Assembly: GCA_965231775.1 (NCBI GenBank)
Contig: OZ246888.1
Coordinates: forward strand, 338,853 to 402,852
DNA: 64,000 bases
Source: Candidatus Binatia bacterium
GTDB taxonomy: Bacteria > Desulfobacterota > Binatia > Bin18
Reading direction: 5' to 3'
The position numbers and the translations under genes were made by a program. The notes below the pieces were generated by a model that saw only the letters and a list, made by a program, of their open reading frames with translations, searched no databases and had not been told where the DNA came from. Numbering within the stretch: the first letter of the stretch is position 1; every line of letters begins with the position of its first letter. Of this stretch, positions 6,633 through 37,156 are shown one piece after another.

Positions 6633-9600
6633 ATGTTTGACATCTCCAAGGATCAACTGCGCCAACTCAACGATGTGGATTTACGAGAATTGGTCGCTCG
6701 TTTGTGTGAAGCGGAATTGAGTCGCGCAGGGGCACCAGTCAGCGCGGTGAGATGGGGTGGTGCTCAGACCGCTCCCGATGGGGGCTTAGATGTTGAAATC
6801 CTAGTCAAAGACCAAGAGTTTGCAGGCGACTTCGTACCCCGTACTTGGACCGGAATTCAGGTCAAGAAATCAAACATGCCGGCTAGCAAGATCGCCGAGG
6901 AAATGTCTCCCAAAGGAGTTCTGAGACCCATCTTCCCGGAGCTTGCGAGACATAACGGCTGCTACATCATCGTTAGCCTGGCCGATGATCCCGCTGGCAC
7001 CAATCTTGGTGATCGAGAGAAGGCAATGCAGACGCAGATCGAGCCGGTCAAGGACCAGGGAGACCTGCGAGTAGAGTTTTACGGATGCGGCCGTCTTGCC
7101 GACCGGCTGCGTCAGCATCCTGGTGTCCAGCTTTGGGTGTGCGAAAAGCTGGGCTTGCCGTTGAGTGGATGGAGGCCGTTCGGGAGGTGGAGTACGACAC
7201 CGCCGGGCGTTGAGGACGACCTGATCTGCGAAGCGGGTGTTACTATTGCGCTTCCGGGAGGGAGGGACAAGTTAGATATCGCGCAAGGAATAGATGGAAT
7301 CCGAGAACTTATAAGAAGCTCAGGCAAAACGGTGCGGATTGTCGGTCTATCCGGGGTTGGTAAATCCCGAATCGTCCAAGCTTTGTTTGAAGAAACCGTC
7401 GGAGACAGACCCCTCGACAGACACCGTGCGATATACGCGGACCTTGGTGAGGTACCGGACCCGCCACCCCGAACGGTTCTTGGGCGTCTTGCTGCTGAAA
7501 AACATCTAGCAATCATAGTATTGGACAACTGTTCGTCCGATGTACACAACCGAATTGCTAGCCAAGCTGCTTCCTCGTCAAACCTTCGCCTTGTCACGGT
7601 CGAATACGACATCCGAGAGGACAAGCCCGAAGAGACCAGGGTTGTTCGGATTGATGCCGAAGGCCCCGAAATAGCTGAAACGCTAATTAAAAGACGGCAC
7701 CCTGACCTCGGTCCAGTCAATGCACAACGGGTCGCCGAGTTCTCGGGCGGCAACGCCCGGGTCGCGCTCGCGCTTGCAGACACGGCAAGTGAGGAGAAAG
7801 AAAGCCTTTTAAGTTTCTCCCCTGCACAACTCTTCGACAGGCTATTCTATCAGCGAGGTGCACCCGACGCAGACCTGCTCAAGGCTGCTGAGGTTTTGGC
7901 GCTCGTATACTCGTTTTCCATTAGCGCCAATGAAGGCGGTGTGGATGAACTCGCCACGCTTGCCGGATTGCTGGATCAGAATCGACGTGCACTACACAGG
8001 GAGGCACAAACGCTTGTTGAGCGACAGCTCGCGCAGAAGCGAGGAGCTTGGCGTGCAGTTTTGCCACATGCACTGTCCAATCGGCTTGCTAAAAGGGCAC
8101 TCGAAAATATCCCCGTTGACGACATCCTCAATACTTTTCAAGGGCTATCAAATCCTCGCCTGCTGAAGTCGTTCGGAAAACGTCTTGGATATCTCCATGA
8201 TCACGAGATCTCACAGGATATCGTCAAATCCTGGCTATCACCCGGTGGACTATTGCACGACCTGTATCTGCTTGATGAAGATGGTATCCAACTCCTTCTG
8301 AATGTGGCTCCGGTAGCTCCAGAAGATGTCTTGAACGCCATTGAGGCTCAGGATACAGGCGGAACAACTGAAATATCCTTCTCTAGGGGAAGTCTACGCC
8401 TCAGGGGAAACTCGCGCCTCTCTACATTTGCGGATCTCTTAGTCGCGATCGCATATGACCCCGATCTCTTCGAAAGATGCGTCGTCCGCCTAGCCAAGTT
8501 TGCTCTGATGGAAACAGAAGAAGAGGGGGAAAATGTCAGTGGTATACGGGGCCGTCTCTATGGTCTGTTTTCATTGTATTTTTCGGAGACCGAGGCTGGC
8601 CCAGACGCTCGTGAGCATGTTGCTCGCCGTTTTTTGTCAAGTGGAGACCGAAACGAACAGAGGCTTGGCTTGGGGATGCTCAGGGCAGCGTTGCGGGGTA
8701 CAAATCAGTTCTTGGCTGGGACTGTCGAATTCGGTGCTCGACTAAGGTTCTACGGTTACCATCCCCAGACTCACGAAGAACACGACCAGTGGTTTATACG
8801 GTTTGTTGCGCTAGCGTGGAAGATAGCCACTGGCGAAGATGTATATCTTTCGACTCAAGTGCGCGCTCTACTCGCGAGCGAGTTACGGGGGCTCTGGGAC
8901 CATTCGGGACTGCGCGAAGCGCTAGTGGATTTAGCGATGGCCCTCAATGAGCAGCGGCCTTGGCTGGAAGGTTGGCGGGCTGTCCGACAAATCAAGCACT
9001 ACGACTATCGCAGGACCCGTGGTACCAAATTATTAGATAAGCTCGATGAGATGCCAGAGTCAGAGCGACCGTCCGATAAAGAAACCAAAACCTATGTTCT
9101 CAGCGCACGATTATTAGATAAGCTGGATGAGACGCTGAAACCAAGAGGACTTGCCGATGAGGTCAGAACCTATGTTCTCAGAGCAGATCACGAACTGTCT
9201 ACCTTGGATGAAGAGTTCGACTTCGATGACAATCAGAGCTGGCAGGAGGCAAACAAACGCGCGGCTGCAAGGGCCTACGACCTTGGTACAGTCGTGGCAG
9301 ATGAGTCGAACGTCCTGAATGAGCTATCGGAGGAGCTCTTCACGGCTCAGAACGGCTATCTCTTTGAATTTGGGAAGGGTGTAGCGTCGAAGTGTAATGA
9401 CCTACAAGGTCTTTGGGAGCGTCTTATTGAGTGGCTCGAACTCGCTGGCGATCAGGCGTGCCATGGTGGTGTCTTGAATGGCGTCCTTAAGGTTACTCAC
9501 GAGCGCGATGAACCGTTAGCACAGAAAATCCTTGATGAAGCGGTACAAAAACGCATTCTCAGAAAATTCATTGTCAGCCTCCAGGTATCGGTTCCATTAG

Positions 9601-10559
9601 GTGATACAGGCGTTTACCGTCTTCACAGGTCACTCGACTTCGAAGATACGCCACTGCGACAATTCGGCAACCTTGCTTGGCATCGTCCGCTCAACACGCT
9701 AAGCGAAGCAGATATTCGGGACCTGATGCTAAAGATGTTGGGCAGGCCTGAAGGCGCTGAAGTCGTCCTTGATGGCTTGAGTATGCGACTGCACGTGTTG
9801 AAAAATGACAACCTCACCTTGGGCCCTGACCTCAAAGGAGCAGGCATACTTGCCTCCGCCGCACTGCTACGCCATAGAGCGGATTATTACGATGGTGGCT
9901 CAATCGATCTTCACCTGTCGGAAGTCTTGAAGTCCTGCATGGACGAAGTCGAGTTTCCCACAGAGACCGGTGAAGTCTTCGATGCGTTTCTCACCAGATT
10001 GAGAGCGTCGTATGGCTACGTGAGTGGTATAGAGAAGGCAGTAGCGGTTCTGGCGGAGAAGACAACATTTCGATTCCTCGATGGCATCTTCCTTGATGCT
10101 GCGCTTAAGGACTATCGCCACACGATTTTTCGGGTAGGGCGTGACGAGGAAAACCCGCTTTCTGGTGTCTCCGTTACGACACTATTAGATTGGTGTGGGC
10201 AAGACGACTTTCAGGAACGGCTGATCATGCTCTCGGAAGCGATTTATCCGTTTGAAAAAGAGCCAGAGGGTGATGGCATCGTATTGTCAGAACAAGCATA
10301 TGCCATTATAGACGCAACACAGGACCCCTCTACAGTTCTGAGAAATTTCTGCTCTTCTGCGAGGCCTAATGGATGGTCGGGGAGTTTGGCGAACATCATC
10401 GCGAAGCGAGGCCAGGCTTTTATGACATTGTTAGAGCATGGCCAATCCGATATCCGCGATGCGGCCGCAGCACAAATCGCTCAAATCAATCAGTGGGAAG
10501 AACAGCAGCGAAGCTACGAGCGGGCCGGGGATGAACAACGTGAGCAGCGTTTTGAGTAA
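6633..10559 (+). CDS. Avs/AVAST-like antiviral STAND NTPase with N-terminal Mrr-like PD-(D/E)xK nuclease domain
   Basis: N-terminus (aa 15-125) matches the Mrr_cat pattern: LRELVARLCEAEL...PDGGLDVEI...GIQVKK...CYIIVSLA (D...QxK). Walker A GLSGVGKS is at aa 238-245 (nt 7344-7367). Walker B is LAIIVLDNC. About 850 aa of helical-repeat C-terminus follow. Compositionally lower GC than the flanks. Confidence 0.65.
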   Translation: MFDISKDQLRQLNDVDLRELVARLCEAELSRAGAPVSAVRWGGAQTAPDGGLDVEILVKDQEFAGDFVPRTWTGIQVKKSNMPASKIAEEMSPKGVLRPIFPELARHNGCYIIVSLADDPAGTNLGDREKAMQTQIEPVKDQGDLRVEFYGCGRLADRLRQHPGVQLWVCEKLGLPLSGWRPFGRWSTTPPGVEDDLICEAGVTIALPGGRDKLDIAQGIDGIRELIRSSGKTVRIVGLSGVGKSRIVQALFEETVGDRPLDRHRAIYADLGEVPDPPPRTVLGRLAAEKHLAIIVLDNCSSDVHNRIASQAASSSNLRLVTVEYDIREDKPEETRVVRIDAEGPEIAETLIKRRHPDLGPVNAQRVAEFSGGNARVALALADTASEEKESLLSFSPAQLFDRLFYQRGAPDADLLKAAEVLALVYSFSISANEGGVDELATLAGLLDQNRRALHREAQTLVERQLAQKRGAWRAVLPHALSNRLAKRALENIPVDDILNTFQGLSNPRLLKSFGKRLGYLHDHEISQDIVKSWLSPGGLLHDLYLLDEDGIQLLLNVAPVAPEDVLNAIEAQDTGGTTEISFSRGSLRLRGNSRLSTFADLLVAIAYDPDLFERCVVRLAKFALMETEEEGENVSGIRGRLYGLFSLYFSETEAGPDAREHVARRFLSSGDRNEQRLGLGMLRAALRGTNQFLAGTVEFGARLRFYGYHPQTHEEHDQWFIRFVALAWKIATGEDVYLSTQVRALLASELRGLWDHSGLREALVDLAMALNEQRPWLEGWRAVRQIKHYDYRRTRGTKLLDKLDEMPESERPSDKETKTYVLSARLLDKLDETLKPRGLADEVRTYVLRADHELSTLDEEFDFDDNQSWQEANKRAAARAYDLGTVVADESNVLNELSEELFTAQNGYLFEFGKGVASKCNDLQGLWERLIEWLELAGDQACHGGVLNGVLKVTHERDEPLAQKILDEAVQKRILRKFIVSLQVSVPLGDTGVYRLHRSLDFEDTPLRQFGNLAWHRPLNTLSEADIRDLMLKMLGRPEGAEVVLDGLSMRLHVLKNDNLTLGPDLKGAGILASAALLRHRADYYDGGSIDLHLSEVLKSCMDEVEFPTETGEVFDAFLTRLRASYGYVSGIEKAVAVLAEKTTFRFLDGIFLDAALKDYRHTIFRVGRDEENPLSGVSVTTLLDWCGQDDFQERLIMLSEAIYPFEKEPEGDGIVLSEQAYAIIDATQDPSTVLRNFCSSARPNGWSGSLANIIAKRGQAFMTLLEHGQSDIRDAAAAQIAQINQWEEQQRSYERAGDEQREQRFE
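9030..9191 (+). repeat. in-frame tandem duplication (2 x 81 nt) inside the STAND gene C-terminal region
   Basis: ttattagataagctcgatgag...aaaacctatgttctcagcgcacga is directly followed by ttattagataagctggatgag...agaacctatgttctcagagcagat. The peptide repeat is LLDKLDEMPESERPSDKETKTYVLSA / LLDKLDETLKPRGLADEVRTYVLRA. Confidence 0.8.
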
Positions 10560-11068: not shown

Positions 11069-12274
11069 ATGAGGCAGAGCATAGGCAAACATTCTGGCGT
11101 ATTGCTCTGTCTTCTCCTCTCCCATCTTCTGCTTGCTCCTTCGCTCTCTTCCGCGCAGGACACAGACGACCAGACGCGCGGGTTGCAACTCGACGGGTGG
11201 CAGGGAACGCGGCCAGCGCCACAACAAACTCCCCGGCCCTCTTCCCCGCAGCGCTATGCCCCCGCCCGGCCCCAAGTCCTGGAACTGCCGTCGGTCTCGC
11301 AACCGTCTATGCAGACCCTTCCGCGTCAACAGGACATTCCGCCTACGCATCTCCAAAAACGGACTCCAAGACCCACCCAACTCCTCACTGTCACTGTGAC
11401 AGATCAGAACGGTCAATATATCAACGGTCTGACCCCCGAGGATTTTATCATCTACGAAGGGGGCCAGTCTCAGCTCATTACCTATTTTAATACTGGCCAA
11501 CAGGAGCCGGTCAGTCTGGGCCTCCTGGTTGACATGAGTGAAAGCATGCACGGCAAACGGCGCCGGGCCGTCCTTGCCCTGCGGAGTTTTGCTCAAGCGA
11601 TTAAACCCGGCGATGAGGTTTTTCTTCTAGGGTTTAATCACCAGCTCACGATCTTACAGGACTTTACCGACAGTCCCAGCCTGTTGACGCAGGCTACGGC
11701 CGGTCTCCAGCCGAGCGGCGAGACGGCCCTGTACGACGCCGTGTTGGGCGGTCTGCAACGCATCCAACGCGGCCAGCGTCAGAAGAAAGCCCTCATCCTC
11801 ATGAGTGATGGCCTGGATACCTCAAGCACGGCCTCACGTGAAGACGCTTTTCGGGCGGCGCGGGAAGCCAACCTTCTCATATACACCATCGGTATCGGTA
11901 ATCTCAGCCAAGGTGTCCGAAGCCAGCGGATGCCCATGTGGGGGATGGGCGGGATGGGACGAATGGGCGGGATGGGTGGTCCCTTCATGCCCAGTCGGGG
12001 CCGGCCCAATCTTGGCTCGGTGGATGTTGACCTGCTGCAATCGCTGAGTGACACGACCGGTGCCCAACATTTTTTTCTGAATACGAAAGATATTCTGGGG
12101 AGCCATACAGTACTCGAACAAGCAACCCAGACCATTGCCCACGAACTTCGCCAGCAATACAGCATCGGCTACCTCTCGCCCCTCAAGGGAGATGTCTACC
12201 GCGACGTTCAAGTCGAGACGCGACATCCACAACATCAAGGACTCATCGTGCGGACGCATAAGGGGACGGGGTAG
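11069..12274 (+). CDS. secreted von Willebrand factor A (VWA) domain protein
   Basis: Signal peptide (LLCLLLSHLLLAPSLSSA) and a Pro/Gln-rich linker. VWA/MIDAS-like region DMSESM...SDGLDTSS. Gly-Met repeat MGGMGRMGGMGG. Confidence 0.65.
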   Translation: MRQSIGKHSGVLLCLLLSHLLLAPSLSSAQDTDDQTRGLQLDGWQGTRPAPQQTPRPSSPQRYAPARPQVLELPSVSQPSMQTLPRQQDIPPTHLQKRTPRPTQLLTVTVTDQNGQYINGLTPEDFIIYEGGQSQLITYFNTGQQEPVSLGLLVDMSESMHGKRRRAVLALRSFAQAIKPGDEVFLLGFNHQLTILQDFTDSPSLLTQATAGLQPSGETALYDAVLGGLQRIQRGQRQKKALILMSDGLDTSSTASREDAFRAAREANLLIYTIGIGNLSQGVRSQRMPMWGMGGMGRMGGMGGPFMPSRGRPNLGSVDVDLLQSLSDTTGAQHFFLNTKDILGSHTVLEQATQTIAHELRQQYSIGYLSPLKGDVYRDVQVETRHPQHQGLIVRTHKGTG

Positions 12275-12355: not shown

Positions 12356-13705
12356 ATGCATTTCATGTGGTTCACGGAACGTGCGTATCACTACGACCCG
12401 GAAGAACATCCGGAGCAATACCGCGACCTCGAAAACGAGATTATTCGCAAACGCAGCTTTTTCGGGACGCCAAACCGCTATTTTGATCGCCAGCACGGCG
12501 CGCGGCTGCTCAATCAGTATCTCGACGAGAAGATCTATACCGACCAGGAGCTGATGAACTTTGACGGCATTATGCTCAACGAGCACCATGCCAACCCCTT
12601 CTGCCTGGGCGCGGTCATGGATGTCGAAGCCTCGGTCCTGGCCAAGGCGACCAGCCGGGTCAGAATGGCGCTGCTCGGCAACCCGGTTCCGACCGTATCG
12701 AACGCGCTCCGGCTGGCCGAAGAGCTGGCCATGATCGACCTGATCTCCAACGGCCGCCTGATCTCCGGCTGGGTGCGTGGCGCGGGCAGCGAACAGCTCG
12801 CCAATAATGCCAACCCGGCCTTTAATCGCGAATATTTTGAAGAGGGCATCGACTTTATCATCAAGTCGTGGACCAAACCCGGCCCGTTTCGGTATGAGGG
12901 CAAGCACTTCCACTTCCGGCACGTCAATCCCTGGGTGCTGCCCGTCCAAGAGCCGCATCCGCCCTTCTGGATTCCCGGTCTCATCAGCCCCGAAACGGTC
13001 GCGTGGTGCGCCAAGAATCGCTATCCCTACGTGGCCCTGGCCACCCGACTCGAACCGACCCTGGAGCTGTGGGATTTCTACAATACAGCCGCAGCCCGTG
13101 AAGGCTATCAGGCCGGGCCGGAGAATTTTGGCTATCTGCAACCCGTCATGGTCGCGGATACGCAGGAACGCGCGGAAGAAATGGGCAAGCGCATTCTGTA
13201 CGGTGGCGCCTTTGCGCATTTCGCCCGGCCCGAATGGATGTTCCCGCCGGGCTATAACTCGAAAGCGGCCACCCGCCGGCTGGCCCGGACGAACTTCGGC
13301 GTGAATGCCTCTGCCGGGCCGCTGTACGGTGAGGGCGGGGAAACGACGGTCGAAGAGATCGAGGCCGTCAAAAAGACTATTTACGATAGCTATCCCGGTG
13401 TCCTCAAAGATATGGTCATGATCGCGGGTACGCCGGACAACGTGATTCCGAAGCTCAAGAAAATCCAGGATATCCTGCGTCCGGGCATCTTCTCCTTCTG
13501 GCTGGACGGCCCGGTGCCGGCCAAGGACCGGATGCGCTGTCTGGAACTGCTCAACCGCGACGTCATTCCGGTCATGCGCGAGCACGGCAAGACGCTGGGG
13601 CTGGTTGACCCGTTTGAGCAAAAACCCGGCTCCCGGCCGCTGGCCAACGGCCGGCCCGAGCCCGTCAGCGATGCCGAGGCTTTGGCCGAGTTGATGGCCG
13701 CCTAA
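12356..13705 (+). CDS. LLM-class flavin-dependent oxidoreductase (luciferase-like monooxygenase)
   Basis: Luciferase-like TIM-barrel pattern (NEHHANPF, LISNGRL..GW). RBS aggagg precedes the ATG. Paralog of 57139-58479. Confidence 0.8.
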   Translation: MHFMWFTERAYHYDPEEHPEQYRDLENEIIRKRSFFGTPNRYFDRQHGARLLNQYLDEKIYTDQELMNFDGIMLNEHHANPFCLGAVMDVEASVLAKATSRVRMALLGNPVPTVSNALRLAEELAMIDLISNGRLISGWVRGAGSEQLANNANPAFNREYFEEGIDFIIKSWTKPGPFRYEGKHFHFRHVNPWVLPVQEPHPPFWIPGLISPETVAWCAKNRYPYVALATRLEPTLELWDFYNTAAAREGYQAGPENFGYLQPVMVADTQERAEEMGKRILYGGAFAHFARPEWMFPPGYNSKAATRRLARTNFGVNASAGPLYGEGGETTVEEIEAVKKTIYDSYPGVLKDMVMIAGTPDNVIPKLKKIQDILRPGIFSFWLDGPVPAKDRMRCLELLNRDVIPVMREHGKTLGLVDPFEQKPGSRPLANGRPEPVSDAEALAELMAA

Positions 13706-13746: not shown

Positions 13747-13798
13747 AGTCTATCTCCCAACCCCAACTGCATCCTTCCGCGATGAGGGGAGAACAGCA

Positions 13799-14608
13799 AT
13801 GAGCGATATCGATCCAACCCAGCGCGGCTTTGTCAGCTATATCGACAAATCGCGCGAATACTACTTGGCGAAGGGCTACGGCAATCCCTACCGCTGGGCG
13901 TCCAACCCGGACGCGCCGTTTACGCCGCTAACCAAGCCGCTGGCTGAAAGCCGGGTCGCTCTGGTCACTACCGCGGCCCCGGACTTGCAAGGCGGACGGA
14001 AGCGCAGCCGCTATGCCGCGGCCACCCGACCTGCCCCCGAGGCGCTCTACACCCGGCACCTGTCGTGGCACAAAACGGCGACCCATACCGACGATGTCGA
14101 AACCTTCCTGCCGGTCCGCCGCTTAACCGAGTACGTGACCGAAGGCCGGCTGGGCAGCCTGTCGCCGCGCTTTTACGGCGTGCCCACGGTCTATAGTGCG
14201 CGCCAGACAGTTCAGGAGGATGCCCCGGCCGTGCTCGACTTCTGTCGTGAGGATAGGGTCGATATTGCCCTGCTGGTCGCCCTGTGACCGGTGTGTCACC
14301 AGACCGTGAGTCTGGTCGCCCGACATCTGGAGACGCAGGGTATTCCCACGGTCGTCCTCGGCTCGGCGCGCGATATTGTCGAGCAGTGTGGCGTGCCGCG
14401 CTTTGTCTTTACCGACTTTCCGCTCGGCAATCCGTGCGGCAAGCCCGACGACACGGCTATGCAGCGGGCTATCGTCGGCATGGCGCTCGACCTGCTTGAG
14501 ACCGCCCGCTATCCGCGCACGACGCTGCAAACGCCCTTTCAGTGGGACGAAACCGGCGAGTGGCGCGCAACGTATATGGAGCTTGCTGAGGACACGCAAG
14601 CGGCGTAG
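13799..14608 (+). CDS. selenoprotein, glycine/sarcosine/betaine/D-proline reductase protein B (GrdB/PrdB) family; selenocysteine encoded by TGA at 14285-14287
   Basis: The track ORFs 13799-14287 and 14291-14608 are in the same frame, separated only by TGA. Read-through gives ...ALLVAL-U-PVCHQTVSL, a UxxC redox motif. A stem-loop ccagac-cgtga-gtctgg starts about 14 nt after the UGA with GU in its loop (bacterial SECIS-like). The N-terminus resembles selenoprotein B family proteins, from recollection. Confidence 0.6.
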
Positions 14609-14649
14609 GGCAATTCATTATTCCGTATAGCCTGCCGGCCCCTGCCGTC

Positions 14650-14716
14650 ATTCCGGCGGAAGCCGGAATCCAGGCTTTCGACCCCTGACCTCTGGATGCC
14701 GGATCAAGTCCGGCAT
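14650..14716. terminator. two hairpins between convergent genes (bidirectional terminator-like)
   Basis: attccggc-ggaa-gccggaat (14650-14669) and atgccgga-tcaag-tccggcat (14696-14716). They lie between the selenoprotein stop and the stop of the minus-strand LLM gene. Confidence 0.35.
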
Positions 14717-14771
14717 GACGAGAGCGGAATGGCAGCCGCGCAGGTCGGGTTAGCCGTAGGCGTAATCCGAC

Positions 14772-16076
14772 CTACTGACTCTGGCCGCACAGATGCTCGC
14801 GCAGGGTCGTGCCCGTGTAGTCGTCCCGATACACTCCGCGTTTCTGGAGTTCCGGGACGAGGAGGTTCACCAGGTCTTCATAATAGTCGGGAGCATAGAA
14901 CGGCGGCGTAATCTGAAAGCCGTTGCCGCCGCCCGCTTCGAGGAAGTGCTGCATGGCGTCCGCCACCTGCGACGGAGTGCCGACCAAGGGATTGGTGTCG
15001 CTGCCAGCCAGATAGGTTTTGGCGATATCACGCAGCGTGATGTTGGCGTCGTATTTTTGATACATCTCGAACAGGCCCCTGGTGCCGGGCACGTCCAAGT
15101 CCTGGACCGGCACGTCAAGGTCAAACCGAGACAGGTCGAGATTGAAGTGCATCGACATCTGGGCCAAGGAGGCTTCGAGCGGAATCCGGGCGCGAATGGC
15201 GGCAAAGCGTTCACGCGCCTCGGCCCCACTCTCCGCCACCAGCGGCTGACCGGCCCACATGATGGGAATGTCGTCCGGATTGCGGCCCAGGCGTTCCGCC
15301 CGGCTGGCGATGTCCTCACAAAACGCCCGCATCTGCTTGACGCCGCGGGCGGCGCTGAATATGCCCTCGGCGTGCTGGGCGGCAAAGGCCCGACCCCGGT
15401 CCGACTGGCCGGCCTGAAACAGAAACGGCCGGCGGCGAACCGAGGGCATGACCGTAAACGGCCCCTGGACTTGGTACCACTGGCCCTGAAAATCGACGCG
15501 GTGAACCTTGGACGGGTCGGCAAAGACCTTGTGCTCCATGTCCATTTGGACGGCATCCGGGTCCCAACTGTTCCACAGGCCGTAACAGACCTGCATATAC
15601 TCGTCGGCGCGCTCATAGCGGTCGTCGTGGGCCGGCAGGCTCTCCAGCCCGAAGTTTCTCGCCTCGGCCGTCGAGGTCGAAGACACGATGTTCCAGCCAA
15701 TCCGACCCTGGGTCAGATGATCGAGCGTCGATAAGGTCCGGGCCAGCAGAAACGGCGGGTAAAACGTGGTGGACATGGTGACGGCGAAACCGAGTTTTTT
15801 GGCCACCGCCGAGAGATAGGTTATCAGCGAGACCGGGTCGTGGCTGGGGAATTGGATGGCGTAGCGCACCTGGTCGGGCTGGGTGCCGCCCGCCAGGCTG
15901 TCCGCGAAGAACAGCATGTCGAACTTGCCGCGCTCCAGGGTGCGGACCACGGCTTCCCAGTACTCGCCCTCATACCATTTGTGGCGAATTTTCTCGCGCG
16001 GATAGATCCACGACAGCGGCATATGCGGAGCCGGGGTAAAGAGGGCGAAGCCGGCGAGATGAATTTGCTTGGACAT
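14772..16076 (-). CDS. LLM-class flavin-dependent monooxygenase (NtaA/SnaA/DszA-like)
   Basis: Start MSKQIHLAGFALF, preceded by gaggatac. Family-typical motifs. Several antisense ORFs in the track overlap it and are spurious. Confidence 0.8.
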   Translation of the reverse strand: MSKQIHLAGFALFTPAPHMPLSWIYPREKIRHKWYEGEYWEAVVRTLERGKFDMLFFADSLAGGTQPDQVRYAIQFPSHDPVSLITYLSAVAKKLGFAVTMSTTFYPPFLLARTLSTLDHLTQGRIGWNIVSSTSTAEARNFGLESLPAHDDRYERADEYMQVCYGLWNSWDPDAVQMDMEHKVFADPSKVHRVDFQGQWYQVQGPFTVMPSVRRRPFLFQAGQSDRGRAFAAQHAEGIFSAARGVKQMRAFCEDIASRAERLGRNPDDIPIMWAGQPLVAESGAEARERFAAIRARIPLEASLAQMSMHFNLDLSRFDLDVPVQDLDVPGTRGLFEMYQKYDANITLRDIAKTYLAGSDTNPLVGTPSQVADAMQHFLEAGGGNGFQITPPFYAPDYYEDLVNLLVPELQKRGVYRDDYTGTTLREHLCGQSQ

Positions 16077-16199
16077 GGCCGTATCCTCATGAACGATCAA
16101 CGCAGGCGCGGACCATACCTAGCCTACTGCGTTCAGGGCCGCCTTGTCGAGCGTCTGGCAACGCTTGCTCTGAACACCGGACCGTTTTATGCTGAGCGC

Positions 16200-26113: not shown

Positions 26114-26377
26114 ATGGCTATCGCCCGATCACGCCTGACGGCACAGGGGCAGATTTCCATCCCGGCCGAGATCCGACGCCGACTCGGGATAGGGCCCGGC
26201 GCTGTACTTGAATGGGACCAGGTCGGGGAACAGATCGTCGTCAGAAGGGCCGAACAGTTTACTTCCGAAGATATTCATCGTGCCCTGTTTCCTCAGGGTC
26301 GTCCGAAGAGAGGAACACCTACGGAGATGAAAGAAGGCATAAAACAACACAGCAGAGACCGGTATGGACGCGGTTGA
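26114..26377 (+). CDS. AbrB/MazE/SpoVT-family antitoxin (VapB-like)
   Basis: QISIPAEIRRRLGIGPGAVLEW is the swapped-hairpin AbrB-type antitoxin signature. Confidence 0.65.
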   Translation: MAIARSRLTAQGQISIPAEIRRRLGIGPGAVLEWDQVGEQIVVRRAEQFTSEDIHRALFPQGRPKRGTPTEMKEGIKQHSRDRYGRG

Positions 26378-26504
26378 TATCAATCTCCTGGTCCGGTTGG
26401 TCCCGTGGGCTGGCCCCTTCAGCTCTTTCCTCCGTTTCCCCCTATCCCCCAGGCCGTCCTCTTGCCGTAACTGCGCAAGTTGCTTAGGCTTACGCCTCAG
26501 ATGA
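26364..26504 (+). pseudogene. possible truncated PIN/VapC toxin remnant (46 codons)
   Basis: Overlaps the antitoxin stop in ATGA fashion. It begins MDAVDINLLVRLV (compare the VapC N-terminal LDTNVL region), then runs into low-complexity sequence and the HlyD start. Confidence 0.25.
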
Positions 26505-27571
26505 AGAAACGCCTGCCATTTATTCTGCTCGGCCTGATCGCCATTGGGGCCGGTCTGTTTCTGTACACGAGAGCCGAGAAGAGCGAGCAACTCTCGTTCA
26601 CCGGTTTTGTTGAGGGCGAGGAGAAAGTCATCAAGAGTGAGATTAGCGGCCGGGTTGAGACCGTAGCGTTTACCGACGGCAGTCAGGTTGAGCAGGGCGA
26701 CCTGCTGGCCGAGATAGACGCGCGGGAATATCGCTCGCAGGTGGTCCAACAGGAGCTCAGCCTGGAACTCCGTAAAGCGAAAATCCGTCAGTTGGAGACC
26801 CAACTCGCCCTTGCCCAAGACACCCATCCGATCCAGCTTCGGACGGCGAAAGCCAATATTGCCAAGGCACGCTCGGACGTCAGCTTTGCCGAAAAAGAAC
26901 TGACGCGGCGGCAGGACCTGCTCGATACGGAATATCTGAGCCAACAGTCCTACGACCGAGCCGAAAATCAACTGGAGACGGCCCAGGCCGTGCTGGCCCG
27001 TGAGCAGGCGGCCCTGGCGCGGGCGGAAGCCAATCTGCGTCAAATAGAACTGGCTGAAAACGCGCTCGAAGTCCAAAAACAGGAACTGGCCGTGGATACC
27101 GAAAAGCTGGGGCAGATGCGTATCATCCTGGACAAATATACGATTCGCGCTCCGTGTGCCTGTACGGTGCAGACCCGTTTGATCCGCGCCGGCGAGTACG
27201 TCAATCCGGGCACGGGCGTTGCGACCCTGCTGGACCCACTCGATAAATATGTTCGCGTCTACGTTCCCGTACCCGACCTGGGCAAAGTCCATATTGGCGA
27301 CACGGTCAGCGTTGAACCCGATGCCCTGCCCGGTGTGTTGATTCCCGGTGAGATCAGCTTCATCCAAGACATCGCCCAGTTCACGCCCAAGAATATTGAA
27401 ATCAAGAGTGACCGCATGACCCAGGTGTTTGCGACCAAAGTGCGCATTTTAGACCAACTCGAACGCCTGAAACCGGGCATGGAAGGCACCGTGTACCTGA
27501 ACGGCGCGCGTCAGCCCGCGCAGCCGGACGAGCCGGCGGAGCGTCCCCAAGAGGCGCAGTCCTCGCCATGA
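26501..27571 (+). CDS. HlyD-family efflux periplasmic adaptor
   Basis: N-terminal TM then long coiled-coil. HlyD-like beta-barrel region. First gene of the ABC cluster. Confidence 0.8.
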   Translation: MKKRLPFILLGLIAIGAGLFLYTRAEKSEQLSFTGFVEGEEKVIKSEISGRVETVAFTDGSQVEQGDLLAEIDAREYRSQVVQQELSLELRKAKIRQLETQLALAQDTHPIQLRTAKANIAKARSDVSFAEKELTRRQDLLDTEYLSQQSYDRAENQLETAQAVLAREQAALARAEANLRQIELAENALEVQKQELAVDTEKLGQMRIILDKYTIRAPCACTVQTRLIRAGEYVNPGTGVATLLDPLDKYVRVYVPVPDLGKVHIGDTVSVEPDALPGVLIPGEISFIQDIAQFTPKNIEIKSDRMTQVFATKVRILDQLERLKPGMEGTVYLNGARQPAQPDEPAERPQEAQSSP

Positions 27572-28500
27572 CAGCACCGGTTGTCAGCCTGACGCAGCTC
27601 CATAAGCAGTTCGATGCCAGCGTCGCTCTGGACGGGATTGATCTCGTCATTGAGCGGCCGTGCATCTTTGGTGTGGTCGGCCCGGATGGCGCGGGCAAGA
27701 CCACCCTGTTGCGCTCTCTGGTTGGGCTGCTGGAGTTTGAGGCCGCCCAGGCCCACGTCTTGGGCTATGATGTCGTGCGCGAACCGCACCGCATCCGAGA
27801 ACATCTCGGCTATGTGCCGCAGGCGTTTGGGCTCTACCCTGAACTCAGCGTGCTGCATAACCTCAGGTTCTTTGCCGATATCCACGGCATTGCGGCTGCC
27901 ACGTTTCAGCAGCGCGCAGACGAGTTGCTGACGATTGCCGGGCTCAAGGATTTTCACACCCGCCTGACCGGCGATCTGTCGGGCGGGATGAAACAAAAGC
28001 TGGCGGTGATCTGTGCGTTGATCCATCGCCCCGAACTCTTGATCTTAGACGAGCCGAACAACGGCGTGGATGTCATCGCCCGGGCTGAGGTGTGGGAAAT
28101 TCTGCGCCACTTGCCGGACGTGACCATCATCATGTCCACCGGCTATCTTGACGAGGCCGAGCGGTGCGACGAGCTGATCTATCTGTATGAGGGCCGTATC
28201 CGTACCCGTGGCACGCCGGATGCCATTCGGTCGAACTACCCGTATCGGGCCTATCGGCTGGTCGGCAGGAACGTGGAGGCGGCGCTCGCCGCCCTCCAGC
28301 CCGCGGCCTGGCTCGTCCGAACGCAAACGCTGGCCGGCAGCGTCGTGCTGGAGGCAACGGCCGAGATTGCCCAAGTCCGCGCCGGGCTGCACGAGCTGGG
28401 CACGGCGGAGGTGTGGGTCGAGCCGCTGCCGCCGACCCTGGAGTTGGTCTTCACGCATCTGACCCACGAGGCCCAGGCCGATGACGCAGGCGGCCACTAG
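27568..28500 (+). CDS. ABC transporter ATP-binding protein
   Basis: Walker A GPDGAGKTT. LSGGMKQKL signature. Walker B LILDEP. Confidence 0.9.
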   Translation: MTAPVVSLTQLHKQFDASVALDGIDLVIERPCIFGVVGPDGAGKTTLLRSLVGLLEFEAAQAHVLGYDVVREPHRIREHLGYVPQAFGLYPELSVLHNLRFFADIHGIAAATFQQRADELLTIAGLKDFHTRLTGDLSGGMKQKLAVICALIHRPELLILDEPNNGVDVIARAEVWEILRHLPDVTIIMSTGYLDEAERCDELIYLYEGRIRTRGTPDAIRSNYPYRAYRLVGRNVEAALAALQPAAWLVRTQTLAGSVVLEATAEIAQVRAGLHELGTAEVWVEPLPPTLELVFTHLTHEAQADDAGGH

Positions 28501-29443
28501 CGCAGACGCGGTTCTTATCGCCGAAGACCTGACGCGGCGCTTTGGCGATTTTACGGCGGTCGACCGCGTCAGCTTTCAGGTGCGGCGGGGTGAGGTTTTC
28601 GGCTTCCTGGGCTCCAATGGGGGCGGCAAGTCCACCACGATTCGGATGTTCTGCGGCTTATTGGCCCCAACCGAGGGGACGGCCCGGGTTGCGGGCCTGG
28701 ATATTCAGACCCAGGCCGAAGCCGTGCGCGCGCGTATCGGCTATATGTCCCAGAAAGTTTCCCTCTATGCCAATCTGACCGTGGCGGAAAACCTCCGGTT
28801 TTTTTCCGGCCTGTACGGGGTGCCGAGTCAAAAAGTCGAACACCAGAAGCAGCACTTCTATCCCCGTCTGGGTCTGGAGGGGCTCGACCGGTCTTTTGTG
28901 CACTCCCTGCCGAGCGGCATCAAGCATCGGATCGCCCTGGTCTGCTCTCTGCTGCACGACCCGGACATCATCTTTCTGGACGAGCCGACGGCCGGGGTGG
29001 ACGTTGTCAATCGCCAGGTCTTCTGGCGATTGATCCGCGAGTTGGCCCAGGAGGGCCGGACGCTGTTTGTCACCACCCATTACCTGGACGAGATGGAGTA
29101 CACCGACCGGATGGGCTTTATTGATCGCGGCGAGTTGATCGGTCTGGATACCCCGACCGGCCTCAAAATCCAGTTCGCCGGCGGCTATCGGGTGCGCCTG
29201 GTCCATACGGATCAAACCGTTGCGCACAACGCGGCCCAACGCCTGGCCGAAACCCATCATATTCGGCGGCCTGAGGCGCAGGCCGCCTTGCTCCTCCTGC
29301 CTGATGACGCGGCACAGACGCTTCAACAGCTCCGCCAGGCGTTGATGGCGATCGATCCCGGACTGGGCTTCGCCCCGGCCCTGCCTTCCATTGAAGAGGT
29401 GTTTGCCGGCATGATACGCCAACGCCAGGAGGCGCATTCATGA
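28481..29443 (+). CDS. ABC transporter ATP-binding protein
   Basis: GSNGGGKSTT. LPSGIKHRI. IFLDEPT. Confidence 0.9.
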   Translation: MTQAATSADAVLIAEDLTRRFGDFTAVDRVSFQVRRGEVFGFLGSNGGGKSTTIRMFCGLLAPTEGTARVAGLDIQTQAEAVRARIGYMSQKVSLYANLTVAENLRFFSGLYGVPSQKVEHQKQHFYPRLGLEGLDRSFVHSLPSGIKHRIALVCSLLHDPDIIFLDEPTAGVDVVNRQVFWRLIRELAQEGRTLFVTTHYLDEMEYTDRMGFIDRGELIGLDTPTGLKIQFAGGYRVRLVHTDQTVAHNAAQRLAETHHIRRPEAQAALLLLPDDAAQTLQQLRQALMAIDPGLGFAPALPSIEEVFAGMIRQRQEAHS

Positions 29444-30585
29444 GCCGCTTACGGGTCAAGCTGGCACGCCTGCTGACCTTGCTGTGGCGCGAATCACTGG
29501 AACTGCGCCGTGACCGTTTTACGCTGGGCGTCCTGTTTCTGATGCCGGTCCTGCAACTGGTGCTGTTCTCCTACATCATTACCACTGACTTCGATCATCT
29601 GCCCTTGGGTGTCCTGGATCAGTCCCGGACCCGTCACAGTCGAGCCTTGCTGGAAGCCATCGAATCCACCGGCTATTTCAGCGTTTTGCCGCTGCGTGAC
29701 CTGGACGAAATCCATCACATGTTCGGCCGGGAACAGAGCCGGGCCGCTTTGGTCATCCCGTCGAACTTCAGCGAGACCATCGTCAACGGCAAAGAGGTGA
29801 GACTGGGGCTCCTGCTGGACGGCTCAGACACGACCCTGAGTACCAGTACCGAAGGGTTTCTGACGGCTATTGCGAGGACCTATTACACCCAGAGCCGGCT
29901 GGAGCGCAGCCCGCCCACGGAACGCAATCTCCGACCGGTCGGGCAGGTGACGACGACCCGGCGGGTGCTGTTCAACCCGAGCCTGTCGGGCACGGCCTAT
30001 ATGATCCCCGGCCTGCTGGGGTTGATCACCCTTTTTGTGACCGTGCTGAACACCACCCTGGCCATGGTCCGTGAGCGCGATGCCGGTACGCTCGAACAAC
30101 TCCTGGTCACCCCGGTGACGTCAACCGAGGTGGTGTTCGGGAAGATTCTGCCCTTTGGCGGGGTCGCCCTGGTGGCGGCGATGCTCATCGTGGTGGTGGG
30201 CTGGCTGTTCTTTGGCGTGATTCCCAAGGGCAGCCTGCTGCTGCTGCTGGCGGTGACGCCCATCTTTTTGCTGATCGGCCTGTCCATCGGCCTGCTCATC
30301 TCAAACTCGGCCACCTCGTCCGGGGAAGCCGTCGAACGCTCGGTCTTAACCATGGTGCCTCAGTTGATGCTCTCAGACGCCATTTTTCCGCTGTCGCTCA
30401 TGGCGACGCCCTTCCAGATCATTGGGGAGATCATCCCCCTGACCCACTATATACGGATTACGCGGGGGATTTATCTCAAGGGCCAGGGGCTGGATGAACT
30501 CTGGATCGAAATCGCCTTTTTGGTCGGCTTTCTGGTGTTGCTGCTGGTGCGCGCGGCCAAGGGGATTCAGAAGCAGGCGGCATAA
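29440..30585 (+). CDS. ABC-2 family transporter permease
   Basis: N-terminal TM, large periplasmic loop, then a cluster of C-terminal TMs. Confidence 0.8.
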   Translation: MSRLRVKLARLLTLLWRESLELRRDRFTLGVLFLMPVLQLVLFSYIITTDFDHLPLGVLDQSRTRHSRALLEAIESTGYFSVLPLRDLDEIHHMFGREQSRAALVIPSNFSETIVNGKEVRLGLLLDGSDTTLSTSTEGFLTAIARTYYTQSRLERSPPTERNLRPVGQVTTTRRVLFNPSLSGTAYMIPGLLGLITLFVTVLNTTLAMVRERDAGTLEQLLVTPVTSTEVVFGKILPFGGVALVAAMLIVVVGWLFFGVIPKGSLLLLLAVTPIFLLIGLSIGLLISNSATSSGEAVERSVLTMVPQLMLSDAIFPLSLMATPFQIIGEIIPLTHYIRITRGIYLKGQGLDELWIEIAFLVGFLVLLLVRAAKGIQKQAA

Positions 30586-30597
30586 GGATTGAGGCGT

Positions 30598-31725
30598 ATG
30601 CGTTTCCGCAATGTTTTGGCCATGGTCCGCAAAGAGGGCCGGACCATGTTGCACGATCATGCCCTGCTGGCCGCCATCCTGGCCCAGCCGGTGCTGTATC
30701 TCATCCTGTTTGGTCTGGCGATCACCAACGACGTCAATGATGCCCCCTGGATCGTGTACGACCAGTCGCAGTCGGTCATCTCGCGCCGGCTCATTCGTGA
30801 TCTGTCTTCCATGACGGCTCTCCAGCCGCCGGCGTTGGCCTCAAGCGAGGGCGCGGTCGTCGACTTCCTGCGTCGGCAGGACGGTATGGTCGGCGTGGTG
30901 GTTCCCTGGAACTTCGACGACAAACTCCAGCGCGGCGAGCCCGCTCCCATCCAGGTCTTGATTAATGGCGCCAAGCCCACCAGCGCCCTGCGCCTGACCA
31001 ATTATATCAACCAGGCGGCCGGCGCGTTTTCTCTCAGCCAGCTCCCCAGCCGCGACCGCGCCGAACGGCGCGTGACGAACGCCGCCATCTCTATCGAAAA
31101 ACGCTATTGGTACAACCCCGGTATTCAGGATCGCTACGGCTTCCTGTCCGCCATGCCGGCCAATATGCTGACCCAGATTCTGTTTATGATCGCCGCGATC
31201 TCGCTGGTCCGCGAACGCGAACGCGGCACCTTTGAGCAGTTGTTGTCTACGCCGCTGTCGCTCACCGAGATTATGGTCGGCAAAATGTTGCCCTATGTGG
31301 GCGTGGGCTATCTGGGCTTGTGCATTATGCTGACCGGTAGCTATCTCTGCTTCGGTATCAGCGTGCAGGGCAGTCTGCCGCTGCTGTTTGCGGTCGCCTT
31401 GGTGTTTATGCTGGCGACGCTGGCGTTTGGCATTTTCTGCTCGGCCTGGGCGGATAACCAGCAGCAGGCGATTTTTCTGAGCTTCTTTGTGATGTTTCCT
31501 TCGGTGATTATCACCGGCATCCTGGTCCCGACCGAGAATTATCCACCCTTCGTCAGCTTCCTGTCCCACTGCCTGCCCGCCCGCTATTTCGCCCATGCGC
31601 TGCGCTCCATTATTCTGAAAGGGGGCGACTTTGCCGCCGTCGCTCAGGATTTCATTTTTCTGACGAGCTTTTTTCTGGTCGCGTTGTGGGCCGCGGTCAA
31701 GGTCACCAAGCCCAAGCTGGGCTGA
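30598..31725 (+). CDS. ABC-2 family transporter permease
   Basis: Same architecture as the preceding gene. ATG at 30598. Confidence 0.8.
   Translation: MRFRNVLAMVRKEGRTMLHDHALLAAILAQPVLYLILFGLAITNDVNDAPWIVYDQSQSVISRRLIRDLSSMTALQPPALASSEGAVVDFLRRQDGMVGVVVPWNFDDKLQRGEPAPIQVLINGAKPTSALRLTNYINQAAGAFSLSQLPSRDRAERRVTNAAISIEKRYWYNPGIQDRYGFLSAMPANMLTQILFMIAAISLVRERERGTFEQLLSTPLSLTEIMVGKMLPYVGVGYLGLCIMLTGSYLCFGISVQGSLPLLFAVALVFMLATLAFGIFCSAWADNQQQAIFLSFFVMFPSVIITGILVPTENYPPFVSFLSHCLPARYFAHALRSIILKGGDFAAVAQDFIFLTSFFLVALWAAVKVTKPKLG

Positions 31726-34984: not shown

Positions 34985-34988
<4 letters not shown>
34758..34988 (+). CDS. hypothetical small membrane protein
   Basis: RBS ggggagg precedes the ATG. 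Two hydrophobic helices. No recognised family. Confidence 0.3.
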
Positions 34989-37075
<2,087 letters not shown>

Positions 37076-37156
37076 AGTGCCACCTTCCTTCACTCCTGGT
37101 TCTCTCTTCCGCTGGGTTTGATGTCGAGTTCTTCCGTGCTGGCCAGCCTGTGACTC

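What the first reader, a model, noticed from the sequence alone, without database searches (positions are those of the whole stretch)
13799..14608. Selenoprotein gene split by the ORF track: in-frame TGA with UxxC motif and SECIS-like hairpin
- ORFs 13799-14287 and 14291-14608 are in one frame, separated only by TGA (14285-14287).
- Read-through gives a 268-aa protein with ...LVAL-U-PVCHQ... The Sec-x-x-Cys pattern is a classic selenoprotein redox motif.
- A stem-loop ccagac-cgtga-gtctgg begins about 14 nt 3' of the UGA with GU in the apical loop. This matches bacterial SECIS geometry.
- The N-terminal region resembles the glycine/sarcosine/betaine/D-proline reductase selenoprotein-B family.
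- No partner Grd/Prd subunits are nearby, so this is probably a stand-alone family member of unknown substrate.
Basis: partly seen in the sequence, partly recalled or inferred. Interest (0 to 1): 0.6.

Follow-up and report, generated by a model that had tools for sequence, protein, structure and literature searches.

The report
Orphan PrdB-like selenoprotein gene
The two adjacent ORFs are really one gene for a selenocysteine-containing enzyme related to clostridial proline/glycine reductase subunit B; that family is already known to use selenium, but this stand-alone branch has no known partner or substrate.

Summary
ORFs 13799-14287 and 14288-14608 form one 269-aa reading frame interrupted only by TGA 14285-14287. 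That TGA sits on a column where every full-length homolog has Cys (C-P-V-C-H-Q), and it aligns with Sec151 of bona fide PrdB. TGA is kept in 120 of 136 related loci from many phyla. The 106 codons after it are under purifying selection (dN/dS 0.11). A 6-7 bp hairpin with loop CGUGA lies 11 nt after the UGA. It is fully paired in 90/101 Sec forms and 0/12 Cys forms, and it shows compensatory synonymous changes.

So this is a genuine selenoprotein gene that gene callers split in two. It is not D-proline reductase PrdB in the strict sense: it scores 100 bits against a cutoff of 300 (real PrdB scores 310), it has no Prd/Grd neighbours, and it carries a family-specific N-terminal segment.

Selenoproteome surveys have listed such sequences as "PrdB, UxxC" since 2005, so the Sec usage is not new. 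The substrate and partner are unknown. The Sec machinery (selABCD) could not be checked with these tools. Verdict: new member of a known kind, moderate interest.

The parts
13784..13791 (+). Shine-Dalgarno-like GAGGGGAG, 7 nt before the ATG
   Evidence: Read directly from the sequence; not tested further.
13799..14608 (+). Complete selenoprotein coding sequence: 269 aa (Sec at residue 163) plus TAG stop. Orphan member of the PrdB/GrdB reductase-B superfamily.
   Evidence: Single frame. NCBIfam TIGR04483 E=1.3e-28 over residues 37-247. 53-66% identical full-length Cys homologs. dN/dS is 0.15 before and 0.11 after the TGA.
14285..14287 (+). UGA codon read as selenocysteine (U163)
   Evidence: Aligns with an invariant Cys in full-length homologs and with U151 of Peptoclostridium PrdB. 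TGA in 120/136 related loci, TGC/TGT in the other 16.
14294..14296 (+). Cys166 codon (TGT), the +3 partner of Sec in the U-P-V-C-H motif; presumed resolving cysteine
   Evidence: P164, V165, C166, H167 and Q168 are invariant in 53 sequences. The same U-x-x-C-H is found in true PrdB. The role is inferred from PrdB/GrdB chemistry.
14298..14316 (+). SECIS-like hairpin: stem 14299-14304 / 14310-14315 (plus A14298-U14316), apical loop CGUGA 14305-14309
   Evidence: Upper-stem pairs are 94-100% paired over 98 distinct sequences, with compensatory changes at 3 pairs. G in the loop (column 22) is invariant. Present in Sec forms, broken in Cys forms. Third-codon-position diversity is halved here.
14606..14608 (+). 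True stop codon (TAG)
   Evidence: Orthologs of the same length end at the same place.
14123..14599 (-). Antisense shadow ORF (158 aa) over the 3' half; not a gene
   Evidence: It recurs across loci only because it overlaps the conserved gene. Related frame-shadow ORF clusters give low-complexity, Arg-rich translations.

Best explanation
This is one gene for a 269-residue selenoprotein. During translation the UGA at 14285-14287 is decoded as selenocysteine, presumably by SelB with Sec-tRNA(Sec), recruited by the hairpin that starts 11 nt downstream (6-7 bp stem, loop CGUGA). The protein belongs to the PrdB/GrdB 'reductase protein B' superfamily and keeps its catalytic U-x-x-C-H motif. It forms a separate, stand-alone branch with a conserved N-terminal segment of its own and no pyruvoyl-bearing partner gene nearby.

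By analogy with PrdB/GrdB, Sec163 is the nucleophile that attacks a substrate carbon or sulfur, Cys166 resolves the adduct into a selenenyl-sulfide, and a thiol or thioredoxin-type donor reduces it again. The many invariant Arg/Asp/Ser/Thr/His residues point to a defined small-molecule substrate, which remains unknown.

Shown here: one frame, the Sec/Cys column, selection on the downstream part, the hairpin and its covariation, superfamily membership, and absence of nearby partners. Inferred: SelB dependence, the redox cycle, and the nature of the substrate.
For: - Single frame with one TGA.
- Cys at that column in all full-length homologs, in the motif C-P-V-C-H-Q.
- TGA in 50/50 genome loci and 67/79 metagenome loci, spanning Binatia, Chloroflexota, Acidimicrobiia, Gammaproteobacteria, Myxococcota and Acidobacteriota.
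- Downstream dN/dS 0.11; diversity by codon position 0.06/0.06/0.29.
- Hairpin core fully paired in 90/101 Sec forms vs 0/12 Cys forms. Ser codon AGT in 90/101 vs 1/12. MFE -16.1 vs -11.7 kcal/mol, p = 2.7e-5.
- Compensatory pairs CG->UA (10 sequences), GC->AU (5, through synonymous CAG->CAA plus CTG->TTG), and AU->GC/UA. 84% of cells paired vs 24-40% when slid.
- Geometry fits the published bacterial SECIS description: a hairpin just after UGA with a small apical loop holding a conserved G (PMC1088965).
- TGA is otherwise a normal stop in this genome, ending 16 of 40 genes.
- U163 aligns with U151 of PrdB. PrdB U151 is the catalytic residue (PMC11229817).
- Superfamily homology: E = 1.3e-28.
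- No Prd/Grd genes in the window, and no recurrent neighbour in 136 loci.
Against: - Sec machinery genes and tRNA-Sec were not found, but only the window and about 1.5 Mb of flanks could be searched.
- The hairpin alone is not statistically unusual in this GC-rich sequence (z = -0.39).
- The lower stem predicted for the window is not conserved (about 50% paired).
- No selenium incorporation data exist.
- The functional part rests on analogy with enzymes that are only 26-31% identical and that need a pyruvoyl subunit absent here.
- Natural Cys forms are common, whereas the U151C variant of C. difficile PrdB is inactive (PMC11229817), so the chemistry may differ.
Confidence: 0.85

Rival explanations
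1. A genuine two-gene arrangement or a pseudogene: TGA terminates translation, and the 105-codon ORF after it is separate or dead.
For: Gene callers annotate it this way in all public records, as 162 aa plus 100/105 aa 'hypothetical proteins'. TGA is a common stop in this genome.
Against: The TGA aligns with an invariant Cys. The downstream part is homologous in frame to the C-terminal half of full-length homologs and has dN/dS 0.11. TGA is kept in 120 loci across phyla, whereas a nonsense mutation would not be. A hairpin specific to the TGA forms covaries.
Confidence: 0.02
2. UGA is read through without selenium, by near-cognate insertion of Trp, Cys or Arg, or by a reassigned code.
For: The Sec machinery was not demonstrated for this genome.
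Against: TGA ends 16 of 40 confident genes in the window, so the code is standard. The column is Cys in homologs and Sec in authentic PrdB. The hairpin with a conserved loop G is the known signature of SelB-dependent recoding. The same family is counted as a selenoprotein in published surveys.
Confidence: 0.03
3. It is the B subunit of a true D-proline (or glycine/sarcosine/betaine) reductase whose other subunits are encoded elsewhere in the genome.
For: The best family match is PrdB. JGI labels homologs 'D-proline reductase (dithiol) PrdB' and NCBI labels some 'glycine reductase' or 'glycine/sarcosine/betaine reductase selenoprotein B family protein'. The Sec column and U-x-x-C-H motif are the same as in PrdB.
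Against: It scores 100 bits against the equivalog cutoff of 300, while real PrdB scores 310. It also fails TIGR01918 (37 vs 65) and has no Pfam GRDB hit. Identity to real PrdB is only 26-31%. No prdA/grd gene lies in the window, and no neighbour recurs across lineages in 136 loci. It has a family-specific conserved N-terminal segment and motifs (YSxRxT, FTDFPLGNPCG) that PrdB lacks. By my reading of the surrounding genes (monooxygenases, acyl-CoA dehydrogenases) the hosts look like aerobic heterotrophs rather than Stickland fermenters.
Confidence: 0.07
4. It works as a general selenol/thiol-disulfide oxidoreductase (Trx/Grx/DsbA-like use of a U/C-P-x-C motif) rather than as a C-X bond reductase.
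For: The motif C/U-P-V-C sits in the loop that leads into a helix after a beta-strand in a confident model (pLDDT 89), as in CxxC oxidoreductases. The surveys class it among thiol-based redox proteins. Natural Cys forms are frequent. There is no obligate partner.
Against: The fold is not thioredoxin-like, and no solved structure resembles it (best Foldseek E = 0.036). Some 38 invariant positions are spread over the whole chain, including several Arg/Asp/Ser/Thr, which suggests a specific ligand pocket. Its homology is to substrate-specific reductase B proteins.
Confidence: 0.2

Closest known systems
D-proline reductase subunit PrdB (TIGR04483; Clostridioides difficile, Acetoanaerobium sticklandii, Peptoclostridium acidaminophilum)
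   Same: Homologous over residues 37-247 (E = 1.3e-28). Sec is at the equivalent column (U163 = U151) in a shared U-x-x-C-H motif. Similar size (237-241 vs 269 aa). Sec is encoded by UGA followed by a hairpin.
   Different: Only 26-31% identical. Fails the equivalog cutoff that real PrdB passes (100 vs 310 bits). No prdA, prdC or prdH nearby. Extra conserved N-terminal segment (YIDKSREYY...PYRWA) and different motifs around the active site. Different hairpin sequence. Cys forms are common, whereas PrdB U151C is inactive (PMC11229817). The hosts look like aerobic heterotrophs, judged from the surrounding genes.
Glycine/sarcosine/betaine reductase selenoprotein B (GrdB/GrdF/GrdH; TIGR01917/01918, Pfam PF07355)
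   Same: Residues 85-236 match the C-terminal half that holds the Sec (E = 1e-7 to 3e-11). Same superfamily and the same idea of a Sec nucleophile.
   Different: GrdB is about 435 aa and its motif is reported as UxxCxxC (PMC13188914). Here the protein is 269 aa and the motif is U-P-V-C-H-Q-T, with no third Cys. Below the subfamily cutoff (37 vs 65 bits) and no Pfam hit. No grdA/C/D/E nearby.
'Proline reductase PrdB (UxxC)' class of marine metagenome selenoproteome surveys (Sargasso Sea 2005, GOS 2008)
   Same: PrdB homologs with UxxC, found mostly as Sec forms in aerobic surface-ocean communities: 42 Sec vs 1 Cys, and 235 Sec vs 110 Cys (PMC1088965, PMC2398784). This matches the Sec-dominated, environmentally widespread family seen here (67 of 79 metagenome loci have TGA).
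   Different: I could not compare the actual survey sequences, so identity of the two sets is inferred. The surveys treat them as proline reductase and do not separate an orphan branch. Binatia members have not been described, as far as my searches show.
Cys-form homologs in cultured bacteria (Bradyrhizobium spp. 'glycine reductase'; Roseomonas haemaphysalidis p546-2; Haematobacter massiliensis pOT1-1)
   Same: Same orphan family (45-57% identity, full length). Same C-P-V/I-C-H-Q motif, and they equally fail the PrdB/GrdB cutoffs.
   Different: Cys instead of Sec, and no hairpin: the Ser codon is AGC, so the stem is broken. About 25 extra C-terminal residues (a helix) are missing from the Binatia form.

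Membership tests
Bacterial selenoprotein gene (UGA-Sec recoding) | In-frame UGA aligned with Cys (or Sec) in homologs | tested here: met
   Invariant Cys in 52 full-length homologs. Sec in authentic PrdB at the same column.
Bacterial selenoprotein gene (UGA-Sec recoding) | Coding conservation continues downstream of the UGA | tested here: met
   dN/dS 0.11 downstream vs 0.15 upstream, with third-position-dominated diversity. The frame stays open for 100-130 codons in all 50 genome loci.
Bacterial selenoprotein gene (UGA-Sec recoding) | [quoted passage not shown] | tested here: met
   6-7 bp stem, 5-nt loop CGUGA with invariant G, 17 nt between UGA and the loop. Criterion as described in PMC1088965. 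bSECISearch itself was not available.
Bacterial selenoprotein gene (UGA-Sec recoding) | The hairpin is maintained by selection (covariation; absent in Cys forms) | tested here: met
   Compensatory changes at 3 of 7 upper-stem pairs. 0/500 shuffles reach the observed covariation score. Slide controls give 24-40% paired vs 84%. Core paired in 90/101 Sec forms vs 0/12 Cys forms.
Bacterial selenoprotein gene (UGA-Sec recoding) | selA, selB, selC, selD present in the same genome | not testable with these tools
   None in the 64-kb window or in 1.5 Mb of related loci.
Bacterial selenoprotein gene (UGA-Sec recoding) | Selenium actually incorporated | not testable with these tools
   Needs 75Se labelling or mass spectrometry.
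D-proline reductase PrdB (NCBIfam TIGR04483, equivalog) | Profile score at or above the curated cutoff (300 bits) | tested here: not met
   100.1 bits. Positive control, Peptoclostridium PrdB: 310.2 bits. Five other members of this family score 80-93 bits.
D-proline reductase PrdB (NCBIfam TIGR04483, equivalog) | Catalytic Sec in the U-x-x-C motif at the PrdB position (U151) | tested here: met
   MAFFT alignment: LVAL-U-PVCH vs FTAG-U-GTCH.
D-proline reductase PrdB (NCBIfam TIGR04483, equivalog) | Encoded with prdA (pyruvoyl proprotein) and other prd genes | tested here: not met
   40 window ORFs scanned with Pfam: none is Prd/Grd. Neighbour clustering over 136 loci finds no recurrent partner.
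D-proline reductase PrdB (NCBIfam TIGR04483, equivalog) | D-proline to 5-aminovalerate activity | not testable with these tools
   Biochemical assay needed.
Glycine/sarcosine/betaine reductase selenoprotein B (TIGR01918 subfamily, Pfam PF07355 GRDB) | Profile score at or above the cutoff | tested here: not met
   TIGR01918 scores 37.3 bits vs 65.45. No Pfam family at E <= 1. Real PrdB scores 76 on TIGR01918.
Glycine/sarcosine/betaine reductase selenoprotein B (TIGR01918 subfamily, Pfam PF07355 GRDB) | UxxCxxC motif and a ~430-aa two-part architecture | tested here: not met
   The motif is U-P-V-C-H-Q-T and the length is 269 aa. Only the C-terminal half of the GrdB profile is matched (positions 269-423 of 431). 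The motif definition is from PMC13188914.
Glycine/sarcosine/betaine reductase selenoprotein B (TIGR01918 subfamily, Pfam PF07355 GRDB) | Partner genes grdA, grdC/D, grdE nearby | tested here: not met
PrdB/GrdB superfamily (homology only) | Significant sequence similarity across the Sec-bearing domain | tested here: met
   E = 1.3e-28 to PrdB and 3e-11 to GrdH. tblastn finds annotated prdB genes at E = 1e-13 to 1e-24.

The most novel reading that the evidence does not exclude
The 'PrdB' that selenoproteome surveys rank among the most abundant selenoproteins of aerobic waters and soils is not proline reductase. On this reading it is a separate, PrdA-independent selenoenzyme family, mostly in the Sec form, with its own N-terminal module and a nearly phylum-invariant SECIS, that catalyses a still unknown reductive reaction in aerobic heterotrophs such as Binatia, Chloroflexota, Acidimicrobiia and Proteobacteria.
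Probability: 0.55. Interest if true: 0.6.

Novelty: new member of a known kind. Interest (0 to 1): 0.4.

Why it matters
For annotation: this gene is split into two 'hypothetical proteins' in every public record I saw. The same error affects over a hundred related loci, so the family's size and its Sec usage are underestimated.

For biology: it shows Sec decoding in Candidatus Binatia, an uncultured lineage. It also draws attention to a large Sec-dominated branch of the reductase-B superfamily that lacks the pyruvoyl partner needed by every characterised member. Its function is an open question, and it can now be tested in cultured Cys-form carriers (Bradyrhizobium, Roseomonas, Haematobacter).

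The hairpin is almost identical in nucleotide sequence across phyla. That makes it a convenient natural example of protein-coding and RNA-structure constraints overlapping on the same codons.

Tried and rejected
- Pfam scan of the read-through protein: no family, not even GRDB.
- PDB sequence searches with the single protein and with a 52-sequence profile: nothing.
A 66%-identical natural Cys form was modelled instead.
- tRNA-Sec search in the window and 50 loci: none.
- tblastn of E. coli SelA/SelB/SelD against 1.5 Mb of held DNA: only one weak SelA-like PLP-fold hit, in L136.
- Scan of the window for other in-frame-TGA genes: 74 candidates, all explained by adjacent genes or shadow ORFs in GC-rich DNA, so uninformative.
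- Rfam: no SECIS or other family at the hairpin.
- Literature search for 'PrdB-like selenoprotein' and for Binatia plus selenocysteine: nothing specific.
- Neighbour clustering first suggested conserved partners (clusters 1, 11 and 12), but these are shadow ORFs of the gene itself.
- The lower stem of the window's MFE fold was rejected as part of the element because it is only about 50% paired across orthologs.
- Exact look-up of the 162-aa half to name the source record failed. The 105-aa half is found on several ENA contigs.

Full report
**1. The observation**

The + strand has an ATG at 13799, preceded by GAGGGGAG. The frame is open to TAG 14606-14608, interrupted only by TGA 14285-14287. 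Read-through gives 269 residues (not 268) with the context LVAL-U-PVCHQT. The hairpin CCAGAC/CGTGA/GTCTGG lies at 14299-14315. On the single sequence the hairpin is not special: MFE -20.5 kcal/mol for 61 nt, z = -0.39 against shuffles. Its meaning had to be tested by comparison.

**2. Is the TGA a sense codon?**

A database search found 5,916 relatives. The hits fall into two classes.
- Full-length proteins of about 291 aa, 53-66% identical, all with Cys at the TGA column in an invariant C-P-V-C-H-Q motif.
- Proteins of exactly 162 aa, 86-95% identical, which are N-terminal halves cut at the TGA by gene callers.

In 50 genome loci the codon is TGA in all 50, and the frame stays open for 100-130 more codons. 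By record title these loci come from Candidatus Binatia (up to 97% identical to the window), Chloroflexota, Acidimicrobiales, Gammaproteobacteria, Myxococcota, Blastocatellia and others. In 79 metagenome loci fetched with a Cys-form query, 67 have TGA and 12 have TGC/TGT.

Among 23 distinct same-length orthologs, dN/dS is 0.15 before the TGA and 0.11 after it. Diversity by codon position downstream is 0.06/0.06/0.29. TGA is otherwise the most common ordinary stop codon in the window, ending 16 of 40 genes, so the recoding is site-specific. A two-gene arrangement, a pseudogene or a sequencing error is therefore excluded for practical purposes.

**3. The recoding signal**

I compared 101 distinct Sec-form and 12 distinct Cys-form sequences over the 51 nt that start at the codon.

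| Measure | Sec forms | Cys forms |
|---|---|---|
| Six-pair core fully paired | 90/101 | 0/12 |
| Ser codon in the 3' arm is AGT | 90/101 | 1/12 (AGC in 10/12) |
| Mean folding energy, 42 nt | -16.1 kcal/mol | -11.7 kcal/mol |

The energy difference is significant (p = 2.7e-5).

A pair count on 98 distinct Sec-form sequences gives the following.
- Upper-stem pairs are 94-100% paired.
- There are double compensatory changes at three pairs: CG to UA in 10 sequences, GC to AU in 5, and AU to GC/UA in 2.
- The GC-to-AU change arises from two synonymous switches, Gln CAG to CAA and Leu CTG to TTG.
- Sliding the 3' partners by 1-3 columns drops overall pairing from 84% to 24-40%.
- No shuffle of 500 reaches the observed covariation score.
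- The loop is CGUGA with an invariant G.
- The lower stem of the window's own MFE fold is not conserved, so I leave it out of the element.

Third-position diversity is halved over the hairpin codons (0.15 vs 0.31). This geometry, a hairpin right after UGA with a small apical loop holding a conserved G, is how bacterial SECIS elements are described (PMC1088965). Rfam has no matching family. A few lineages (L095, L115) have a shifted alternative hairpin, CCGUGA-GUC-UCACGG (my reading of the sequences).

**4. What the protein is**

NCBIfam places it nearest D-proline reductase PrdB (E = 1.3e-28 over residues 37-247), and more weakly on the C-terminal, Sec-bearing half of GrdH/GrdB/GrdF. Pfam gives nothing.

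A tblastn against plasmids retrieved annotated prdB genes at 26-31% identity. Aligned to Peptoclostridium acidaminophilum PrdB, U163 falls exactly on U151: LVAL-U-PVCH vs FTAG-U-GTCH. U151 is the residue that attacks the alpha-carbon of pyruvoyl-bound D-proline in C. difficile PrdB, and the U151C variant is inactive (PMC11229817).

Membership in the PrdB equivalog fails, however.
- It scores 100 bits against a cutoff of 300. The real PrdB control scores 310, and five other members of this family score 80-93.
- The GrdB-type subfamily model also fails: 37 vs 65 bits, with real PrdB at 76.
- The family has its own conserved N-terminal segment (Y14, R19, Y22, Y31, W33) and its own motifs (YSxRxT, FTDFPLGNPCG) that PrdB lacks.

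An AlphaFold model of a 66%-identical Cys form is confident (pLDDT 89, pTM 0.88). It puts the Sec-column residue in the loop between a beta-strand and the following long helix. No solved structure resembles it.

**5. Surroundings**

In the window the gene lies between two luciferase-like monooxygenase genes: 12356-13705 on the same strand, and 14772-16100 convergent. Further out are a VWA protein, acyl-CoA dehydrogenases, an SDR and an amidohydrolase. That arrangement is conserved only within the close Binatia group.

Clustering the neighbours of 136 loci found no gene that travels with it across lineages. The apparent candidates were shadow ORFs of the gene itself. Forty ORFs across the window contain no Prd, Grd or sel gene. 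Cys forms in Bradyrhizobium, Roseomonas and Haematobacter also have unrelated neighbours. 'Stand-alone' is therefore correct.

**6. How it most likely works**

Shown:
- a site-specific UGA recoding signal;
- a PrdB-type U-x-x-C-H centre.

Inferred:
- SelB with Sec-tRNA(Sec) reads the hairpin and inserts Sec163;
- Sec163 acts as the nucleophile, Cys166 resolves the adduct into a selenenyl-sulfide, and a thiol or thioredoxin-type system reduces it again, as in PrdB/GrdB;
- no pyruvoyl subunit is encoded nearby and many polar residues are invariant, so the enzyme probably binds a specific small substrate by itself.

A general selenol/thiol-disulfide oxidoreductase role is the main functional rival (about 0.2). 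A true proline or glycine reductase with distant partners is unlikely (about 0.07).

**7. What is known and what is new**

Selenoproteome surveys have listed 'Proline reductase PrdB, UxxC' among the most abundant selenoprotein families since 2005. The Sargasso Sea survey counted 42 Sec and 1 Cys. GOS counted 235 Sec and 110 Cys (PMC1088965, PMC2398784). Reviews up to 2026 still file them under D-proline reductase. The Sec usage is thus known, and this is a new member, in Binatia, of a known kind. What remains open, and is sharpened here, is that this branch fails every test for being proline or glycine reductase and has no known function.

**8. Limits**

- The Sec machinery could not be sought genome-wide. 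No tRNA-Sec or sel gene lies in the window or in the 1.5 Mb of flanks I held, which is uninformative.
- Taxon labels are those of MAG record titles, and some look wrong (see the notes).
- The Sec:Cys ratios depend on how the loci were sampled.

Noticed in passing
window 14620-14770: The intergenic region between the convergent selenoprotein and monooxygenase genes is strongly structured (165 nt, -75.5 kcal/mol, z = -3.2) and built of small palindromic modules (e.g. CATTCCGGCGGAAGCCGGAATCC, GCCGGATCAAGTCCGGC). Close Binatia relatives have only about 54 nt here, or different combinations of related modules (L028, L002). It looks like a REP/MITE-like insertion rather than a plain terminator. There is a single copy in the window and no exact copy in the other loci.
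   Followed up: partly
window 44695-46314 (-); L026 2174-3721; L029 4393-5970; L140 6899-8371: A SelO protein adenylyltransferase gene (Pfam E = 4.6e-128; C-terminus ...CSMLSCSS, i.e. the Cys type, not Sec) lies 30 kb from the selenoprotein gene. In two Chloroflexota MAGs and in Roseomonas haemaphysalidis, selO sits tail-to-tail next to the PrdB-like gene (gaps of about 90 nt, 0.8 kb and 5 nt). That is only 3 of about 90 evaluable loci, so it is a weak hint of linkage at most.
   Followed up: partly
window 6633-10559 (+): A 1308-aa ORF with no Pfam match at all, followed by a VWA-domain protein (11069-12274).
   Followed up: no
window 53497-56334 (-): MmeI-like type IIL restriction-modification enzyme with all five MmeI domains. 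An MvdD/RimK-type ATP-grasp gene is next to it (52199-53182).
   Followed up: no
window 34985-41412 (-): Run of catabolic genes: a FadB-like enoyl-CoA hydratase/3-hydroxyacyl-CoA dehydrogenase, an OYE-type flavin plus pyridine-nucleotide-disulfide reductase, and a protein with the N,N-dimethylformamidase beta-subunit C-terminal domain (E = 5e-89).
   Followed up: no
window 12356-13705 (+), 14772-16100 (-), 57139-58479 (-): Three luciferase-like monooxygenase paralogs in 64 kb, two of them flanking the selenoprotein gene. The flanking pair is conserved only in the close Binatia group.
   Followed up: partly
L019, L021, L025 (record titles): MAGs titled 'uncultured Enterobacteriaceae' and 'uncultured Clostridia' carry orthologs 69-74% identical to the window's. 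L019 also has Binatia-like neighbours 88-91% identical, so these bin labels are probably wrong.
   Followed up: partly
window 14530-14608 vs homologs (alignment A1 columns 290-333): The Binatia form ends about 25 residues earlier than most homologs. It lacks the C-terminal helix (L..LG.ERR..QA.AK) seen in the 291-aa forms.
   Followed up: no
L095, L096, L115 (codons after the TGA): A few lineages replace the usual hairpin by a shifted one, CCGUGA-GUC-UCACGG, that uses part of the old loop as stem. This is a possible example of SECIS turnover within one family.
   Followed up: no
window 26129-27367 (-): A 412-aa ORF without any Pfam match, upstream of an ABC-2 transporter operon (27568-31725).
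   Followed up: no
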